This document shows positions 40,176 through 48,156 of a stretch of 64,000 nt of DNA, piece by piece. The notes under the pieces are model-generated. The model worked only from the letters and a program-made list of their open reading frames with translations. It was not told the origin of the DNA and ran no database searches. The stretch's first letter is position 1; every line of letters starts with the position of its first letter. This stretch comes from Escherichia coli (GTDB lineage: Bacteria; Pseudomonadota; Gammaproteobacteria; Enterobacterales; Enterobacteriaceae), in assembly GCF_002854065.1 (NCBI RefSeq), contig NZ_CP024147.1; one strand, written 5' to 3'. A program made the translations under genes and the position numbers.

Positions 40176-40194
40176 ATACTCTGTCTGATTATAA

Positions 40195-40713
40195 TCAGAA
40201 GGCAGACGTATCCTGGAACAGACCGACTTTCAGGTCGCTGGCGGTATAGATCAGACGACCATCAACCAGCACTTCGCCATCTGCCAGACCCATAATCAGA
40301 CGACGATTAACAATGCGTTTAAAGTGAATACGGTAGGTCACTTTTTTCGCTGTCGGCAGTACCTGACCAGTGAATTTCACTTCGCCAACGCCCAGCGCGC
40401 GGCCTTTACCTTCGCCGCCCAGCCAGCCGAGGTAGAACCCTACCAGCTGCCACATTGCGTCCAGGCCCAGGCATCCCGGCATAACCGGATCGCCAATAAA
40501 GTGGCATCCGAAGAACCACAGATCCGGATTGATATCCAGTTCTGCTTCAACATACCCTTTGTCGAAGTTACCACCCGTTTCGGTCATTTTGACCACACGG
40601 TCCATCATCAGCATGTTCGGTGCTGGCAATTGCGGGCCTTTAGCGCCAAACAGTTCACCGCGACCAGAGGCAAGAAGGTCTTCTTTTGTATAGGATTCGC
40701 GTTTATCTACCAT
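40195..40713 (-). CDS. fabA: 3-hydroxydecanoyl-ACP dehydratase/isomerase FabA, 172 aa
   Basis: ATG at 40711-40713 gives [23 protein letters not shown]...; track ORF extends 66 codons upstream. Confidence 0.96.
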
Positions 40714-43211: not shown

Positions 43212-43240
43212 AAAAAAAACCCCGCAGCTGCGGGGTTTTT
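43212..43240. terminator. Bidirectional terminator between convergent matP and ompA
   Basis: A8-ACCCCGCAG/CTGCGGGGT-T5 perfect hairpin. Confidence 0.65.
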
Positions 43241-43255
43241 CTACCAGACGAGAAC

Positions 43256-44308
43256 TTAAGCCTGCGGCTGAGTTACAACGTCTTTGATGCCTTTAACTTC
43301 GATCTCTACGCGACGATCCGGAGCCAGGCAGTCGATCAATGCAGCACGCTGTTTCACGTTGTCACAGGTGTTGCCAGTAACCGGGTTGGATTCGCCCATA
43401 CCACGTGCGGAGATCTTGTCTGCCGGGATACCTTTAGAGATCAGGTAATCAACAACAGACTGAGCACGGCGCTCGGACAGACCCTGGTTGTAAGCGTCAG
43501 AACCGATGCGGTCGGTGTAACCCAGAACAACTACGGAACCGTCTTTCGGATCCAAGTTGCTCAGCTGGCTGTACAGCTGATCCAGAGCAGCCTGACCTTC
43601 CGGTTTCAGGGTAGCTTTGTTGAAGTTGAACAGAACGTCAGACTTCAGAGTGAAGTGCTTGGTCTGTACTTCCGGTGCTGGAGCTGGAGCCGGAGCAACT
43701 ACCGGAGCTGCTTCGCCCTGACCGAAACGGTAGGAAACACCCAGGCTCAGCAGGCCGTTGTCCGGACGAGTGCCGATGGTGTGTGCGTCACCGATGTTGT
43801 TGGTCCACTGGTATTCCAGACGGGTAGCGATTTCAGGAGTGATCGCGTACTCAACACCGCCAGCGAAGACCGGAGAAACGCCGGTGTCGTGGTCTTTAGT
43901 GGATACCCCACCAGGTACGTTAGACTTGGTGTCTGCACGCCATACCATACCACCCAGACGAGTGTAAACGTCCAGATCGTCAGTGATTGGGTAACCCAGT
44001 TTAGCGGTCAGCTGAACGCCCTGAGCTTTGTAAGCGCCGTTGATGTTGTCGCCTTTGTACGGCATACGACCTAACCAGTCGTAACCCATTTCAAAGCCAA
44101 CATACGGGTTAACCTGGTAACCACCAAAAGCACCAGCGCCCAGTTGGTTTTCATGGGTCGGGCCATTGTTGTCGATGAAACCAGTGTCATGGAACTGGGA
44201 CCAGCCCAGTTTAGCACCAGTGTACCAGGTGTTATCTTTCGGAGCGGCCTGCGCTACGGTAGCGAAACCAGCCAGTGCCACTGCAATCGCGATAGCTGTC
44301 TTTTTCAT
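43256..44308 (-). CDS. ompA: Outer membrane protein A precursor, 350 aa variant allele
   Basis: ATG at 44306-44308 gives [21 protein letters not shown]; Pro-Ala hinge [14 protein letters not shown]; OmpA-like C-terminal domain; track ORF extends 24 codons upstream. Confidence 0.96.
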
Positions 44309-44441
44309 TTTTTGCGCCTCGTTATCATCCAAAATACGCCATGAATATCTCCAACGAGATAACACGGTTAAATCCTTCACCGGGGGATCTGCTCAATATT
44401 AACTCTACCGATATCTTCGGCTTATGCCGAGCACCCCTGGC
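44309..44441 (-). promoter_or_regulatory. ompA long 5' untranslated leader with promoter immediately upstream
   Basis: Non-coding region upstream of ompA ATG; ~133-nt leader length is from recall. Confidence 0.5.
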
Positions 44442-44664
44442 GATGTAAAGTCTACAACGTAGTTGAAAACTTACAAGTATGAACTCCGTCAGGCATATGA
44501 AAAAAAAGTCTTGTATAAGGTATGTTTAATCTTTTTTGTCAGCGACAATTTACAGAAGAAAATCGCGGAAACCGCTTCAGACAAGCCTCCGCAAGGAAAA
44601 TTAGTCACGACTGAAAGCATTGGCTGGGCGACAAAAAAAGTTCCAGGATTAATCCTAAATTTAC

Positions 44665-45174
44665 TTAATGATACAAATTAGAGTGAATTTTTAGCCCGGA
44701 AAGTTGTCTCGTTGCGTGAGAGGATGCGCTTACCGGACGCATAATAAACCCCATCGCGTTACCTTCATTTGCCGCATCAACAAGTTCAGCATGCTCTTCT
44801 TCAGTCAAATCATCTGCCAACCAACCGATCACCACACTGTAATTGCCCGTGCGTAAAGCGCGAACCATTGACTCCACAGTGTGGCAAGGGGGGAGCTGGC
44901 TAATCTGCATTACTTTCGTTAAGGGTAGCCCAGATGCCTGAACCCATTCCCGACTCAGTTTTTGTTGCGGTGTTAACCAGAGTTGCCAGCGCGATTGCTG
45001 ACCGAGTTGCTGTAACAATGGCAACAGTAGAAGTTGCGTCATCATGGGCTGATCTTCGCGATAGACAACTTCACTGATAAGCCCGGCTGTAGTGTTTTCC
45101 GTAGAGACACGCGCAATTTTACTTGCTGCGGATGAGAACGACGAAGAACGATGTGCATAGCCTGAAGTGTACAT
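44665..45174 (-). CDS. sulA: SOS cell division inhibitor SulA, 169 aa
   Basis: ATG at 45172-45174 gives [25 protein letters not shown]... Confidence 0.93.
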
Positions 45175-45196
45175 AATCAATCCAGCCCCTGTGAGT

Positions 45197-45216
45197 TACT
45201 GTATGGATATACAGTA
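45197..45216. promoter_or_regulatory. LexA operator (SOS box) at sulA promoter
   Basis: TACTGTATGGATATACAGTA fits CTGT-N8-ACAG, 23 bp upstream of sulA start. Confidence 0.7.
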
Positions 45217-45335
45217 CATCCAGTGACAACAAAGATCAACCCTATTTTCGGAAAGAGCCTCGCAAATTTTGTCGTTGGTGACGGGAAAACATAAATTAAT
45301 CTTGCCCCTTAAGAATAAGTTGCCTATTTTCGTAG

Positions 45336-45351
45336 TTAACGGATCCGTTAA
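45336..45351. promoter_or_regulatory. 16-bp perfect palindrome in the sxy leader/promoter
   Basis: TTAACGGATCCGTTAA, 42 bp upstream of sxy ATG. Confidence 0.35.
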
Positions 45352-45392
45352 TGTGAATCATTCTTTTATGTTATGATTTTAAAAGGAATTTT

Positions 45393-46022
45393 ATGAAAAG
45401 CCTCTCCTATAAGCGGATCTATAAATCACAAGAATACCTGGCAACGTTGGGCACAATTGAATACCGATCATTGTTTGGCAGTTACAGCCTGACCGTTGAC
45501 GACACGGTGTTTGCGATGGTTTCTGATGGTGAGTTGTATCTTCGGGCTTGTGAGCAAAGTGCACAGTACTGTGTAAAACATCCGCCTGTCTGGCTGACAT
45601 ATAAAAAGTGTGGCCGATCCGTTACCCTCAATTACTATCGGGTTGATGAAAGTCTATGGCGAAATCAACTGAAGCTGGTGCGTCTGTCGAAATATTCTCT
45701 CGATGCAGCGCTGAAAGAGAAAAGCACGCGCAATACCCGGGAAAGACTGAAAGATTTGCCCAATATGTCTTTTCATCTGGAAGCGATTCTCGGGGAGGTG
45801 GGGATTAAGGATGTACGGGCGTTACGTATACTTGGGGCAAAAATGTGTTGGTTGCGACTGCGGCAGCAAAACAGTCTGGTGACAGAAAAGATTCTGTTTA
45901 TGCTTGAAGGTGCCATTATCGGCATTCATGAAGCTGCGCTCCCGGTGGCACGCCGCCAGGAGCTTGCAGAATGGGCTGACTCTCTTACGCCGAAACAGGA
46001 GTTTCCTGCGGAACTTGAGTAA
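45393..46022 (+). CDS. sxy: Competence regulator Sxy/TfoX, 209 aa
   Basis: MKSLSYKRIYKSQEYLATLGTIEYRSLFGSYSL... TfoX N- and C-terminal domains. Confidence 0.9.
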   Translation: MKSLSYKRIYKSQEYLATLGTIEYRSLFGSYSLTVDDTVFAMVSDGELYLRACEQSAQYCVKHPPVWLTYKKCGRSVTLNYYRVDESLWRNQLKLVRLSKYSLDAALKEKSTRNTRERLKDLPNMSFHLEAILGEVGIKDVRALRILGAKMCWLRLRQQNSLVTEKILFMLEGAIIGIHEAALPVARRQELAEWADSLTPKQEFPAELE

Positions 46023-48138
46023 TCTGGCGTTGCAGACGACCAATCTCAGGCAGTAATGCAATCAATAACCCAACTTGTTGTACGACCAGAGGTTCTTTGC
46101 TGTCTGCCCGTGGTTCAAGTTGCTGCATCCGCTGTTTCAGGCCAGCTAATGCCTGATTGACGCGTTCTTCATCAGCAGGTTGATGATGTAACGCGTCATC
46201 AACATAGCAAACTGCGTCATCAAGAAACGCCAGAATTTCAGGATTAGTTAACTGCTCCCGGTGAGCACCGAGGGCTGAGATATAGCTGGTAAACGTATGG
46301 TTAAGGCACAGCAACCGAAACGCGGCTTCGCGAATTTGCGGGGTAACGTTCGGTTCGCTGGACATATTTGATACCACCGACGCCAGTTCAGCATCACGGT
46401 TGTGTGCATCGCGGCGGGCAATACGATACGCAAGACGGTTATCACGCCCCTGATGGTATTGCTCCAGTATGGCATCGAGATAGCGACAGTTGGCCTCTGT
46501 GGCGCGTTCGAGCATGCGCGGCAGATTGCGAAACTGCCAGTCAGGCCAGATGTAGCTCACTGCCGCCCACGCAATGGCACAACCAATCAGCGTATCGATT
46601 ACGCGAGGTAACGCTACTTCAAAACCTTCACCCAGTAAGTTAAAACACAGTAGCACCAAAAGTGTGATGAACATCGTTGCATGAGCGTATTGCACGTTAC
46701 GGAAGGCAAAAAAGAGCACGCCGGTAATAACCAGCAGCACCAGCTGCCCTTCCAGTGATGGCACAAACCACAGCACAGGAATGCCAATGGCGATACCTAC
46801 CAGCGTACCAATAATCCTTAACTTCAGGCGGTGGCGCGTGGCGTTATAGTTTGGCTGGCAGACAAACAAACTTGTCAGCAAGATCCAATACCCGTGATGC
46901 ATTCCGGTTATTTGAATGATGGCGTAGCCGAAGCACAACACCAGCGACATTCTTACCGCATGACGGAAGAGGGCGGATTCCGGCGTGAAGTGACGGCTAA
47001 GACGCAGCCAGATATCACTCAATCCGTGCGGGCTGTCATCAGCGAGCTCATTTTCGTCATTATTATGGGGCAGTGCCTGGGCCTGTTCTGATTCAATTGT
47101 TGCCAGTTGGGCATCAATGGCGCGTAAATTGTTCAGCAAAAATCCCAGTATTTTGAGTAAATCGGCAGGCGCGCCGTTATCGCGCATCCGCTCCAGGGCA
47201 GCATCAATATGCGTAAAAGCGCGCTCAAAATGCGGATCATGTTGATAAGGCTGACGCAGCAAAATACAGCGTGACAGTTGCTGGCACGCCTGGCCCTGCA
47301 TCGACATCAGCCGCTGAAAACGGAACAGCACGTCGCTGTGGCGAAAATGTTCACGCAATGTTTGATACTGAATATGAGAAGAGCTGGCACGCTCGTGAAT
47401 ATCCTGTGCGACAAAGTAATAATGCAGCGTGCGACGCGTTCCCCGTTGACCACGATCGCCACGTAAGCGGGTCAGCAGCGAGAGTTTCGTCTGATTCAAT
47501 GTCGCCATCAGCTGACCGTTGGCGAGAGCCAAATCGTACAGCGGTGCCTGGCTTTCATCTTCAATATCAGGATCAAACATGCGCGACTTGAGCTCAAGAT
47601 AACGCGCCAGTTGTTCATAGCAACGCGCCAGGTTGTCCTGCAGCGGGCGGACCGGGAACAGCAGATGACCAATAAGTGTCAGGACGTTGTACCAGACGGC
47701 ACCAGCCAGCAGATACATCGGCTGCTGATACCAGTGCTCATACAGTGATGTTCCCAACATAGTGTAAATGGCGATCAGCAATGCACCGAAGGCAATTGTT
47801 GCATAGCGTTGACCCAGACCGCCGAGCAAAATGAAGCCGCTGGTAGAGAGCGTTAAGCCAATCGCAAATAGCCAGGGCCAGGGAAACAGCAATTCTACTG
47901 AGGCCGAGGCGATAAAAAAGCAGAACAGCGTAATGATGAGGTTACGCAAACGTCCCGCCAGTCGGTCATCGAGATCGGTCAGCGCCGCTGCCACCATCCC
48001 CAGCGTCAGCGGAATCGTCAGTTTTACATCACCCAGCCACCACGGAAACGCTGTGGTTCCACAAAGCGCAATAAAAATACGCGCGTAATACAGCCAGGCG
48101 CTGTTCCATGTATAGCGTTTGAGCAAAGGACTTAGCAT
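45985..48138 (-). CDS. yccS: Inner membrane protein YccS (FUSC family), 717 aa from internal ATG
   Basis: Large polytopic membrane protein; ATG at 48136-48138, alternative ATG three codons upstream at 48147. Confidence 0.82.
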   Translation of the reverse strand: MLSPLLKRYTWNSAWLYYARIFIALCGTTAFPWWLGDVKLTIPLTLGMVAAALTDLDDRLAGRLRNLIITLFCFFIASASVELLFPWPWLFAIGLTLSTSGFILLGGLGQRYATIAFGALLIAIYTMLGTSLYEHWYQQPMYLLAGAVWYNVLTLIGHLLFPVRPLQDNLARCYEQLARYLELKSRMFDPDIEDESQAPLYDLALANGQLMATLNQTKLSLLTRLRGDRGQRGTRRTLHYYFVAQDIHERASSSHIQYQTLREHFRHSDVLFRFQRLMSMQGQACQQLSRCILLRQPYQHDPHFERAFTHIDAALERMRDNGAPADLLKILGFLLNNLRAIDAQLATIESEQAQALPHNNDENELADDSPHGLSDIWLRLSRHFTPESALFRHAVRMSLVLCFGYAIIQITGMHHGYWILLTSLFVCQPNYNATRHRLKLRIIGTLVGIAIGIPVLWFVPSLEGQLVLLVITGVLFFAFRNVQYAHATMFITLLVLLCFNLLGEGFEVALPRVIDTLIGCAIAWAAVSYIWPDWQFRNLPRMLERATEANCRYLDAILEQYHQGRDNRLAYRIARRDAHNRDAELASVVSNMSSEPNVTPQIREAAFRLLCLNHTFTSYISALGAHREQLTNPEILAFLDDAVCYVDDALHHQPADEERVNQALAGLKQRMQQLEPRADSKEPLVVQQVGLLIALLPEIGRLQRQITQVPQETPVSA

Positions 48139-48156
48139 AAAGGCCATATTAGTGGA

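What the first reader, a model, noticed from the sequence alone, without database searches (positions are those of the whole stretch)
45336..45351. Perfect 16-bp palindrome TTAACGGATCCGTTAA 42 bp upstream of sxy
sxy is tightly regulated at both transcription and translation. A perfect palindrome at this position could be a dimeric regulator binding site or, if transcribed, a hairpin in the leader. It contains a GATC Dam site at its centre. It does not obviously match the CRP-S consensus (TGCGA-N6-TCGCA), so its role is unassigned.
Basis: inference. Interest (0 to 1): 0.35.

Follow-up and report, generated by a model that had tools for sequence, protein, structure and literature searches.

The report
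Conserved palindrome at sxy transcription start
A perfect 16-bp palindrome sits exactly on the transcription start of the E. coli competence-regulator gene sxy and is conserved across enteric genera, so it is probably an unassigned repressor-binding site, though no binding protein has been identified.

Summary
TTAACGGATCCGTTAA lies at 45336-45351 in the sulA-sxy intergenic region of E. coli, with its last base 42 bp before the sxy ATG. A 16-bp perfect palindrome is expected about once per 64 kb by chance, so the case rests on position and conservation.

Two independent genome-wide 5'-end data sets put the sxy start at window 45338, the third base of the palindrome. The palindrome therefore spans -2 to +14 of the promoter TTGCCC-17-TATTTT, and the known CRP-S site is centred at -81.5.

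The 14-bp core TAACGGATCCGTTA is as conserved across 28 enterobacterial orthologues as the -35 and -10 blocks, while its flanks are not. A distant orthologue (Sxy 47% identical) carries TTAGTGGAACCACTAA at the identical position, with two dyad pairs changed on both sides.

The RNA hairpin that the mapped transcript could form is weak (-1.6 kcal/mol). It is broken in 10 of 22 orthologues and has no consensus-structure support.

My best reading (about 0.4) is an operator for an unidentified dimeric regulator that blocks initiation. The main rival (about 0.25) is a 5'-terminal or leader hairpin. No binding protein could be named. It is a moderately interesting, testable lead on how E. coli keeps sxy silent.

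The parts
45336..45351 (.). Perfect 16-bp palindrome TTAACGGATCCGTTAA, spanning -2 to +14 of the sxy promoter
   Evidence: Sequence. Identical in K-12. Exact in at least 5414 of 5426 complete E. coli genomes.
45337..45350 (.). Conserved 14-bp dyad core TAaCGGATCcGtTA. Pairs 1, 2, 4, 6 and 7 are kept in at least 26 of 28 orthologues. Pair 5 is kept in 14 of 28 and pair 3 in 21 of 28.
   Evidence: Mean majority fraction is 0.93, against 0.71 and 0.72 in the flanks.
45342..45345 (.). Central GATC (Dam site), inside the BamHI site GGATCC at 45341-45346
   Evidence: Sequence. GATC is present in 26 of 28 orthologues and is GAGC in two Citrobacter. There are four GATC in 401 bp, where 1.24 are expected.
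45338..45338 (+). Main sxy transcription start (A). This is MG1655 U00096.2 position 1,020,306, or NC_000913.3 position 1,021,083.
   Evidence: Cappable-seq TSS, score 58.55 (PMC4782308 supplement). Romero et al. entry FWD_(II)-1020306 (PMC4681348 supplement). The coordinate mapping was checked with the sxy annotation, the ompA and sulA starts in the same table and the palindrome position in L023.
45325..45330 (+). -10 hexamer TATTTT, inside the invariant block TAAGTTGCCTATTTTC (45316-45331)
   Evidence: Geometry relative to the TSS. Shimada 2014 lists the same promoter, TTGCCC-17-TATTTT, for sxy (PMC3946193). Conservation 0.96.
45302..45307 (+). -35 hexamer TTGCCC
   Evidence: conservation 0.95.
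45249..45264 (+). Known CRP-S site core CGGAA-AGAGCC-TCGCA, centred at -81.5. The proximal half is TGCGA and the distal half TTCCG on the other strand.
   Evidence: Description of the sxy CRP-S site in PMC6728893, matched to the sequence. There are no indels between it and the -10 in 28 orthologues.
45338..45392 (+). 55-nt AU-rich 5' UTR. The Shine-Dalgarno AAGGA is at 45383-45387.
   Evidence: TSS plus start codon. Folding energy is no better than shuffles.
45393..46022 (+). sxy (tfoX) coding sequence
45412..45420 (+). Coding segment AGCGGATCT (codons 7-10), complementary to +4..+12 of the leader. It is the possible partner in the rival long-range RNA pairing.
   Evidence: MFE and centroid folds. 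No covariation.
45278..45278 (+). Alternative start reported in the literature: a G 115 bp upstream of the ATG, data not shown. If it is used, the whole palindrome is transcribed.
   Evidence: PMC3330819 discussion. It is not seen in the two genome-wide sets.

Best explanation
The palindrome is a dyad-symmetric protein-binding site, an operator laid over the transcription start of the sxy promoter (-2 to +14, centre +6.5). A dimeric regulator that is still unidentified would bind the two half-sites, consensus yTAaCGGA. Binding would occlude the start site and the downstream edge of the open complex, holding down the promoter TTGCCC-17-TATTTT. RNA polymerase alone recognises that promoter, and CRP-Sxy activates it from -81.5. 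What is shown: the position relative to the mapped start, the promoter elements, the conservation, and the mirror-like pattern of that conservation. What is inferred: that a protein binds, that it represses, and that the central GATC could make binding sensitive to Dam methylation.
For: (1) Two independent 5'-end data sets place the start at 45338, inside the left arm. Promoter geometry and an independent RpoD-holoenzyme SELEX prediction agree. (2) The 14-bp core is as conserved as the -35 and -10 blocks (0.93 against 0.95 and 0.96), while the discriminator and +15..+33 are not (0.71, 0.72). (3) Conservation is mirror-like. T45337/A45350 are invariant on both arms in 28 of 28, and A45338/T45349 are kept in 28 and 26 of 28. 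The outermost pair varies on both arms, and reads C..G instead of T..A in Enterobacter cancerogenus and Lelliottia. Pairs 7 and 8 include bases upstream of the start, which are not in the RNA. (4) The centre GATC continues the dyad, which an RNA loop has no need to do. (5) The orthologue L032 (Sxy 47% identical) has CRP-S, -35, -10 and ATG at identical distances. It carries TTAGTGGAACCACTAA at the same place: 7 of 8 pairs, two of them changed on both sides. Three pairs show changes on both sides, against 1.4 expected, and 9 of 500 shuffles reach that. (6) The RNA alternative is weak. (7) A site centred a few bases downstream of +1 is the classical position for repressors. The LexA box of sulA in the same intergenic region overlaps the sulA start in the same way.
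Against: No protein is known or could be found. RcdA binds this intergenic region, but at TTGTnnACA inside sulA. No ChIP-exo hit at sxy appears in the held supplement of a 40-candidate-TF study, parts of which were cut when stored. HicB's dyad is unrelated. The right arm decays in Citrobacter, Lelliottia and Pseudenterobacter (pair 5 is kept in only 14 of 28), so symmetry is not strictly required. The left arm plus centre, TAACGGATC, is more conserved than the right arm. Changes on both sides in L032 suit an RNA stem as well as, or better than, a co-evolving operator. The promoter gives a fairly strong Cappable-seq signal (58.6) in ordinary culture, so any repression is incomplete under that condition. 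Other distant orthologues have no equivalent dyad (L034, L036) or a differently built one (L033 has CAACATGTTG; L035 has ATGTT-N7-AACAT).
Confidence: 0.4

Rival explanations
1. It acts as an RNA hairpin. One version is a 5'-terminal stem-loop starting exactly at +1 (AACG-GAUC-CGUU) that shields the 5' end from RppH and RNase E and so sets sxy mRNA stability. The other applies if transcription also starts at the reported -115 G: a 6-7-bp hairpin inside a long leader, or part of a long-range stem with codons 7-10 that encloses the Shine-Dalgarno sequence, as in H. influenzae and V. cholerae sxy/tfoX.
For: The stem begins at the first transcribed base. In L032 the two dyad pairs changed on both sides (A2-U11 to G2-C11, C3-G10 to U3-A10) lie inside the transcribed 4-bp stem, and the MFE of its leader keeps a +1 hairpin. 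C-to-U changes at 45346 (7 species) and A-to-G at 45339 (C. rodentium) give G.U pairs. With flanks, the full palindrome folds at -6.5 kcal/mol, z = -2.0. Sinha and Redfield report a -115 start and an Mfold stem-loop like those of H. influenzae and V. cholerae, plus regions of strong base pairing upstream of E. coli sxy. MFE and centroid structures of the 123- and 175-nt RNAs pair +4..+12 with AGCGGAUCU in the coding region.
Against: The hairpin of the mapped transcript is only -1.6 kcal/mol, no better than shuffles, and is absent from the MFE of the whole 55-nt leader. RNAalifold finds no consensus structure in 22 orthologues. The A2-U11 pair is broken in 10 of 22 without compensation, and no measure exceeds the shuffles for the hairpin, the long-range stem or the extended structure. 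The invariant bases T45337/A45350 and the compensated pair 8 include positions that the mapped transcript does not contain. No + strand start near -115 appears in either genome-wide set, and a start there would put the CRP-S site at -21.5, a position that does not activate. The -115 start falls in the least conserved part of the region.
Confidence: 0.25
2. The conserved unit is the first ten transcribed bases, (T)AACGGAUCYG, and the symmetry in Escherichia is a by-product. These bases could matter for start-site choice or promoter escape. Alternatively they could be a single-stranded recognition element at the 5' end of the mRNA, for example an A-N-GGA motif for CsrA working together with the AAGGA of the Shine-Dalgarno sequence, or a target for a small RNA.
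For: The left arm and centre are nearly invariant, while the right arm varies. GGAUC persists next to the -10 in L034, where there is no dyad, and that leader carries five A/C-AGGA(U/C) motifs. L032 keeps GGA at +4..+6 and has further GGA motifs. sxy (b0959) is in the Potts 2017 list of genes that are either CLIP-seq targets or differentially expressed in a csrA mutant.
Against: sxy is absent from the complete CsrA CLIP-seq table and from the enrichment list of CLIP-only genes. The motif does not fit the CsrA hairpin consensus. This reading does not explain the invariant T45349/A45350 at +12/+13, the dyad kept in Salmonella, Yokenella, Leclercia and E. cancerogenus, or the symmetric changes in L032.
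Confidence: 0.12
3. The element works through its GATC. Dam methylation, or SeqA binding to the hemimethylated site at +5..+8, would modulate initiation, tying sxy expression to replication or to methylation state, with or without a competing protein.
For: GATC lies at the exact centre and is present in 26 of 28 orthologues. GATC is mildly enriched in the region: 4 in 401 bp where 1.24 are expected, and 5 of 200 shuffles reach 4.
Against: Two Citrobacter species (GAGC) and L032 (GAAC) lack the GATC but keep the rest of the element. A 4-bp site does not explain 14 conserved bases. I found no paper linking sxy to unmethylated GATC sites.
Confidence: 0.08
4. It has no function of its own. A chance palindrome lies in a slowly evolving promoter region and is conserved only because the neighbouring promoter elements are.
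For: About one such palindrome is expected per 64 kb. A control 32-mer in the leader is also exact in 96% of E. coli genomes. No factor has been found.
Against: Conservation drops on both sides of the core, so this is not a uniformly conserved stretch. The dyad score is about 4.7 sd above other centres across non-Escherichia genera. Changes on both sides keep the symmetry.
Confidence: 0.1

Closest known systems
Repressor operators that overlap the transcription start, such as lac O1 and the LexA box of the neighbouring sulA promoter
   Same: A dyad-symmetric site of 14-20 bp placed on or just after +1 of a sigma-70 promoter and conserved among relatives. The sulA LexA box (45199-45218) in the same intergenic region also covers its gene's mapped start, 45205.
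   Different: No cognate protein is known. The sequence matches neither the LexA (CTGT-N8-ACAG), the CRP/CRP-S nor the RcdA consensus. Repression has not been shown.
Leader secondary structures of sxy/tfoX in Haemophilus influenzae and Vibrio cholerae
   Same: The gene family is the same. A stem between the 5' leader and the early coding region that limits translation is documented in those species (PMC2248739 abstract; PMC3330819). E. coli folds predict an analogous pairing of +4..+12 with codons 7-10.
   Different: The mapped E. coli leader is only 55 nt, AU-rich and not more structured than shuffles. There is no consensus structure or covariation in 22 orthologues. No Rfam family matches.
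5'-terminal stem-loops that stabilise mRNA, such as the ompA 5' UTR (established knowledge)
   Same: The hairpin would begin at the first transcribed nucleotide, with no unpaired 5' bases.
   Different: The stem has four base pairs at -1.6 kcal/mol, is lost in about half of the orthologues, and no half-life data exist.
Dam-methylation-sensitive regulatory sites, such as OxyR at agn43 and Lrp at pap (established knowledge)
   Same: A GATC lies inside a candidate protein-binding site at a promoter.
   Different: There is a single GATC, no evidence of protection from methylation, and the GATC is dispensable in three lineages.
[quoted passage not shown]
   Same: It is a symmetric 5-N6-5 layout in the same promoter.
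   Different: TTAAC-N6-GTTAA shares one of five positions per half-site with TGCGA. The real CRP-S site is at 45249-45264, centred at -81.5.

Membership tests
Transcription-factor operator (dimeric repressor site) | Dyad symmetry over about 14-20 bp | tested here: met
   A 16-bp perfect palindrome in Escherichia. A 14-bp perfect palindrome in Salmonella, E. fergusonii, Yokenella and Leclercia. A 16-bp perfect palindrome with the outer pair changed to C..G in Enterobacter cancerogenus.
Transcription-factor operator (dimeric repressor site) | Overlaps core promoter elements or the start site | tested here: met
   It spans -2 to +14 of the mapped start, 45338.
Transcription-factor operator (dimeric repressor site) | Conserved above its flanks in orthologous promoters, with a mirror-like pattern | tested here: met
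   0.93 against 0.71 and 0.72. The dyad score is 5.9 of 7 against 1.9 +/- 0.8 elsewhere. Three pairs change on both sides, and 9 of 500 shuffles reach that.
Transcription-factor operator (dimeric repressor site) | A cognate protein binds it and changes transcription | not testable with these tools
   No candidate was found in SELEX or ChIP-exo literature within reach. This needs a pull-down or gel shift.
CRP / CRP-S site | 22-bp site with core TGTGA or TGCGA-N6-TCACA or TCGCA | tested here: not met
   The halves TTAAC/GTTAA match one of five positions. The published CRP-S site is elsewhere.
LexA (SOS) box | CTGT-N8-ACAG | tested here: not met
   The motif is absent from the palindrome. The sulA box is at 45199-45218.
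Conserved RNA hairpin or leader structure | Thermodynamic stability above shuffled controls | tested here: not met
   -1.6 kcal/mol with z = -0.6 for the mapped transcript. Whole-leader z-scores are about 0. Only the full palindrome with flanks reaches z = -2.0, and that RNA needs an upstream start.
Conserved RNA hairpin or leader structure | Base pairs kept by compensatory changes across relatives | tested here: inconclusive
   None among 22 close orthologues, and one stem pair is broken in 10 of 22. Two stem pairs are compensated in the single distant orthologue L032.
Intrinsic terminator or attenuator | G+C-rich stem followed directly by a U run | tested here: not met
   The scan found none in 45100-45500. 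The nearest U run is 12 nt after the stem.
Known RNA families (Rfam 15) | Covariance-model match at or above the gathering score | tested here: not met
   Only two sub-threshold chance matches in 44300-46300.
CsrA binding site | GGA in a hairpin loop plus a second GGA at the Shine-Dalgarno sequence, and in-vivo crosslinking | tested here: not met
   ACGGA at +2..+6 and AAGGA in the Shine-Dalgarno sequence exist. However, sxy is absent from the complete CsrA CLIP-seq table of Potts 2017, and low sxy expression limits that negative result.
Dam methylation site | GATC present; methylation state regulated | tested here: inconclusive
   GATC is present at 45342-45345. Its methylation state cannot be tested here, and GATC is missing in three lineages that keep the element.

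The most novel reading that the evidence does not exclude
The palindrome is the operator of a so-far unknown, widely conserved enterobacterial repressor or sensor that sits on the sxy start site and keeps the competence regulon off in laboratory culture. Identifying that protein with the 16-bp site as bait would reveal the natural signal that switches on DNA uptake in E. coli and Salmonella. No such inducing condition is known (PMC3330819).
Probability: 0.3. Interest if true: 0.65.

Novelty: new member of a known kind. Interest (0 to 1): 0.4.

Why it matters
E. coli has a complete Sxy-inducible DNA-uptake regulon, but no natural condition that turns sxy on is known (PMC3330819). The published controls are CRP-S autoactivation and Lon proteolysis. 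A conserved dyad lying exactly on the sxy start site is a concrete handle that nobody has assigned. A 30-bp probe could fish out a regulator, and a handful of point mutations could separate a DNA role from an RNA role. If it is an operator, it would add a negative input to the competence switch and might point to the inducing signal. If it is only a 5' hairpin, it would extend leader-RNA control of sxy/tfoX to the Enterobacteriaceae. It also has a practical side: the natural BamHI site used for cloning behind the native sxy promoter (section 19) may be the one in the centre of this element, so such constructs could cut or rebuild it.

Tried and rejected
**Start-site evidence**
- The sigma-70 and terminator scan of 45100-45500 found nothing. 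The real promoter matches only 8 of 12 positions, below the tool's threshold.
- Jaskolska and Gerdes 2015 and Thomason 2015 are not held. The start site was therefore taken from two supplementary tables.
- A Salmonella transcription-unit table lists yccR (= sxy) from 1,163,078 to 1,163,693. The CDS coordinates could not be checked, so it was not used.

**Candidate DNA-binding proteins**
- RcdA binds the sulA/sxy region, but its footprint and box (TTGTnnACA) are in sulA.
- The held ChIP-exo supplement for 40 candidate transcription factors has no peak at sxy, only RNA-seq rows.
- HicB, a Sxy-linked antitoxin and repressor, has a hicAB dyad GTAAAC-N6-GTTTAC that is unrelated.
- From memory I compared the site with the motifs of CRP, FNR, LexA, LacI-family members, DeoR, GlpR, ArcA, PmrA, SlyA, MetJ, TrpR, MqsA and others. 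None fits. This comparison is a lead only, not a test.

**RNA-level ideas**
- Rfam gave no family.
- CsrA: sxy is not in the CLIP-seq table.
- The long-range stem and the extended stem proposed by Mfold in the literature show no covariation.

**Other attempts**
- Dam: the literature search found nothing relevant.
- The repeat finder reported no inverted repeat, because the arms are shorter than its 10-bp minimum.
- The motif could not be scanned across the whole genome.

Full report
**What and where.** The window is E. coli chromosome. ompA (43268-44308, -), sulA (44665-45174, -), sxy (45393-46022, +) and yccS (45985-48147, -) are recognisable from the ORFs. RefSeq annotation of K-12 confirms them, and the sxy product has the TfoX_N and TfoX_C domains. 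TTAACGGATCCGTTAA is at 45336-45351 as reported. It is a perfect 8+8 palindrome with GATC (45342-45345) and a BamHI site at its centre, and its last base is 42 bp before the ATG.

**Chance.** First-order Markov simulations of the window give about 1.2 perfect palindromes of 16 bp or more per 64 kb. At least one occurs in 72% of simulated windows. The real window has four, one of which is the ompA terminator. The bare observation is therefore not significant, and everything depends on context.

**Position relative to transcription.**
- Cappable-seq lists a + strand primary start at U00096.2 position 1,020,306 with a relative read score of 58.55, and a weak one at 1,020,352 (PMC4782308 supplement).
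- The transcription maps of Romero et al. list FWD_(II)-1020306 (PMC4681348 supplement).
- NC_000913.3 has sxy at 1,021,138 and the palindrome at 1,021,081-1,021,096.
- The offset between the two genome versions here, 777, comes from my own knowledge. Internal evidence supports it. The same Romero table gives the ompA start 134 nt before its ATG, where the known leader is about 133 nt. It also gives the sulA start inside the LexA box.
- The start therefore maps to window 45338, the third base of the palindrome.
- That fits a -10 TATTTT (45325-45330) and a -35 TTGCCC (45302-45307) with a 17-bp spacer. Shimada et al. assigned the same promoter to sxy from RpoD-holoenzyme SELEX (PMC3946193).
- The published CRP-S site has a proximal TGCGA and a distal TTCCG half (PMC6728893). 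It is CGGAA-N6-TCGCA at 45249-45264, centred at -81.5.
- The palindrome thus spans -2 to +14, and the leader is 55 nt.

**A conflicting start site.** Sinha and Redfield state, without showing data, that sxy transcription starts at a G 115 bp before the ATG (45278). They add that Mfold predicts a stem-loop like those of H. influenzae and V. cholerae (PMC3330819). Neither genome-wide set has a + strand start there. Such a start would put the CRP-S site at -21.5, and the position lies in the least conserved part of the region. I treat it as unconfirmed but keep it in the RNA rival.

**Conservation.**
- The intergenic region is present in 5425 of 5426 complete E. coli genomes.
- The palindrome is exact in at least 5414 of them: 5243 with G and 171 with T at the flanking position 45335. 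A control 32-mer in the leader is also exact in 5199, so species-level identity says little.
- I collected 27 orthologous sulA-sxy regions from Escherichia clades, E. albertii, E. fergusonii, Salmonella, Citrobacter, Intestinirhabdus, Yokenella, Pseudenterobacter, Leclercia, Enterobacter and Lelliottia.
- In the alignment the conserved blocks are the LexA box, the CRP-S site, ATCTTGCC (-35), TAAGTTGCCTATTTTC (-10) and the core of the palindrome.
- Mean majority fractions are 0.95 (-35), 0.96 (-10 block) and 0.93 (14-bp dyad). The discriminator scores 0.71 and +14..+33 scores 0.72.
- No indel occurs between the CRP-S site and the -10 in any species.

**Pattern within the palindrome.**
- Pairs 1, 2, 4, 6 and 7 are complementary in at least 26 of 28 sequences.
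- Pair 3 is complementary in 21 of 28; the others are G.T.
- Pair 5 is complementary in 14 of 28, and pair 8 in 11 of 28.
- T45337/A45350 are invariant on both arms, although the positions next to them vary.
- The outer pair is T..A in Escherichia and C..G in E. cancerogenus, Lelliottia and an Enterobacter MAG.
- TAACGGATCCGTTA is perfect in Escherichia, E. fergusonii, Salmonella, Yokenella, Leclercia and E. cancerogenus.
- The dyad centre scores 5.9 of 7 complementary pairs averaged over non-Escherichia species, against 1.9 +/- 0.8 (maximum 4.7) for all other centres.

**Distant orthologues.** Five Sxy relatives of 42-47% identity were fetched.
- L032 (47%; ompA-sxy-yccS synteny, no sulA) has the CRP-S half-site, TTGCTA, TATTTT and the ATG at exactly the E. 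coli distances. This is read from the sequence printed.
- At the same position L032 has TTAGTGGAACCACTAA: 7 of 8 pairs, with pair 4 changed from C.G to T.A and pair 5 from A.T to G.C.
- On an 18-sequence alignment, three pairs show a change on both sides against 1.4 expected, and 9 of 500 shuffles reach that.
- L033 has a different perfect 10-bp palindrome (CAACATGTTG) over its predicted start.
- L035 has ATGTT-N7-AACAT centred at the same distance from the ATG.
- L034 keeps only GGATC next to the -10, and L036 keeps only CGTTAAT.
- Dyad symmetry therefore seems to be selected in the lineage from Escherichia to Enterobacter and in L032. It is relaxed in Citrobacter and is not universal further out.

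**RNA tests.**
- From the mapped start, the RNA can form only AACG/GAUC/CGUU at -1.6 kcal/mol. That is not better than shuffles, and the hairpin is absent from the MFE of the 55-nt leader.
- Longer RNAs pair +4..+12 with AGCGGAUCU in codons 7-10 and so enclose the ribosome-binding site, but the z-scores are 0.34 and -0.47.
- RNAalifold on 22 orthologues returns no pairs.
- Pair counts for the hairpin, a second leader hairpin, the long-range stem and the full predicted structure never exceed the shuffles. A2-U11 is broken in 10 of 22.
- Rfam has no match.
- Only the full 16-mer with flanks is reasonably stable (-6.5 kcal/mol, z = -2.0), and that RNA needs the unconfirmed upstream start.
- On the other side, the two compensated pairs in L032 fall inside the transcribed stem, and the fold of its leader keeps a hairpin at +1.

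**Protein candidates.**
- RcdA selects the sulA/sxy spacer in SELEX, but its footprint and box lie in sulA (PMC3535384; PMC5934670).
- No sxy peak appears in the held ChIP-exo supplement for 40 candidate factors. There, sxy has a base mean of about 92 reads, against 192 for sulA.
- HicB's operator-like dyad is unrelated.
- CsrA was considered because of ACGGA at +2..+6 and AAGGA in the Shine-Dalgarno sequence. However, sxy is absent from the complete CLIP-seq table and appears only in a combined list of CLIP-seq or differentially expressed genes (PMC5694010).
- No paper connects sxy with unmethylated GATC sites.
- I could not scan a whole genome for further copies of the motif.

**Judgement.** Several things favour a DNA-level, dimer-binding operator that blocks initiation:
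- the element sits on the start site;
- its conservation is mirror-like and includes bases that are not transcribed;
- the dyad runs on through the centre;
- the RNA is weak.

I give this reading about 0.4. Three things keep it from being higher: no protein is known, the right arm is degenerate in many species, and the compensated changes in L032 suit an RNA stem equally well.

The rival readings are:
- 5'-terminal or leader hairpin: about 0.25.
- Conserved 5' end of the transcript with incidental symmetry: about 0.12.
- Dam/SeqA effect through the central GATC: about 0.08.
- No function: about 0.1.

**Novelty and interest.** A candidate operator or hairpin at a promoter is a known kind of element. 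This particular one is not assigned in anything I could read, although Sinha and Redfield allude to regions of strong base pairing upstream of E. coli sxy. Its interest is moderate. It offers a cheap, direct experiment on why E. coli keeps its competence regulator silent.

Noticed in passing
window 45199-45218: The sulA LexA box TACTGTATGGATATACAGTA has A at 45209 here where K-12 MG1655 has G. This is the only difference in the 212-bp intergenic region. The mapped sulA start (45205) lies inside the box.
   Followed up: partly
window 45249-45330: None of the 28 orthologues has an indel between the CRP-S site and the -10, although 45265-45298 is poorly conserved in sequence. The phasing is fixed, with CRP-S at -81.5, an unusually distal class-I-type position.
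   Followed up: partly
window 45371-45384: A -10-like TATGAT (45371-45376) precedes a weak Cappable-seq start at 45384, which is 9 nt before the ATG and just upstream of the GGA of the Shine-Dalgarno sequence. ATGATTT is conserved or nearly so in all 28 orthologues. The palindrome's right arm would lie in the -35 region of this minor promoter.
   Followed up: partly
window 45357-45378: The leader has an inverted repeat, AATCAT ... ATGATT (+20..+41). Several species have C-to-U changes that keep G.U pairs, but no double changes, so this possible second hairpin is unproven.
   Followed up: partly
window 45373-45396: A 7-codon upstream ORF, ATGATTTTAAAAGGAATTTTATGA, has a stop that overlaps the sxy ATG (ATGA). 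It has no Shine-Dalgarno sequence, and a 1-nt deletion breaks the frame in Salmonella and Citrobacter, so it is probably not functional.
   Followed up: partly
window 45414-45419: Codon 8 of sxy is Arg in nearly every orthologue and always uses a rare Arg codon (CGG, AGG, AGA or CGA); C. koseri has Lys (AAG). This gives CGGATC or AGGATC, a second copy of the palindrome core 74 bp downstream that is complementary to it.
   Followed up: partly
window 45278: The published statement of an sxy start at a G 115 bp before the ATG (PMC3330819) disagrees with two genome-wide data sets.
   Followed up: partly
window 43215-43240; 28380-28395; 40184-40199: A 26-bp perfect palindrome, AAAAACCCCGCAGCTGCGGGGTTTTT, lies just 3' of ompA and looks like a bidirectional terminator. 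Two more 16-bp perfect palindromes are GCCCAACGCGTTGGGC and TCTGATTATAATCAGA.
   Followed up: no
window 45985-46022: sxy and yccS converge, and their coding regions overlap by 38 bp.
   Followed up: no
L022; L019: A 276-bp contig with 1.1x coverage, 99% identical to E. coli sxy, sits in an Alkalicoccobacillus porphyridii assembly and is likely contamination. A 'Raoultella' MAG has an sxy promoter nearly identical to that of Citrobacter braakii and is likely mis-binned.
   Followed up: no
E. coli genome search: Four copies of the sulA-sxy intergenic region lie on records typed as plasmids.
   Followed up: no
window 45383-45396: From my memory of the ChiX sRNA sequence, its 5'-AUGAAAUUCC-3' could pair with the sxy Shine-Dalgarno and start region GGAAUUUUAU. 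This would be a possible chitosugar link like TfoR and tfoX in Vibrio. It is untested.
   Followed up: no
L034 1140-1215: In this distant orthologue the leader and first codons carry five A/C-AGGA(U/C) motifs, a pattern typical of CsrA-bound leaders.
   Followed up: no
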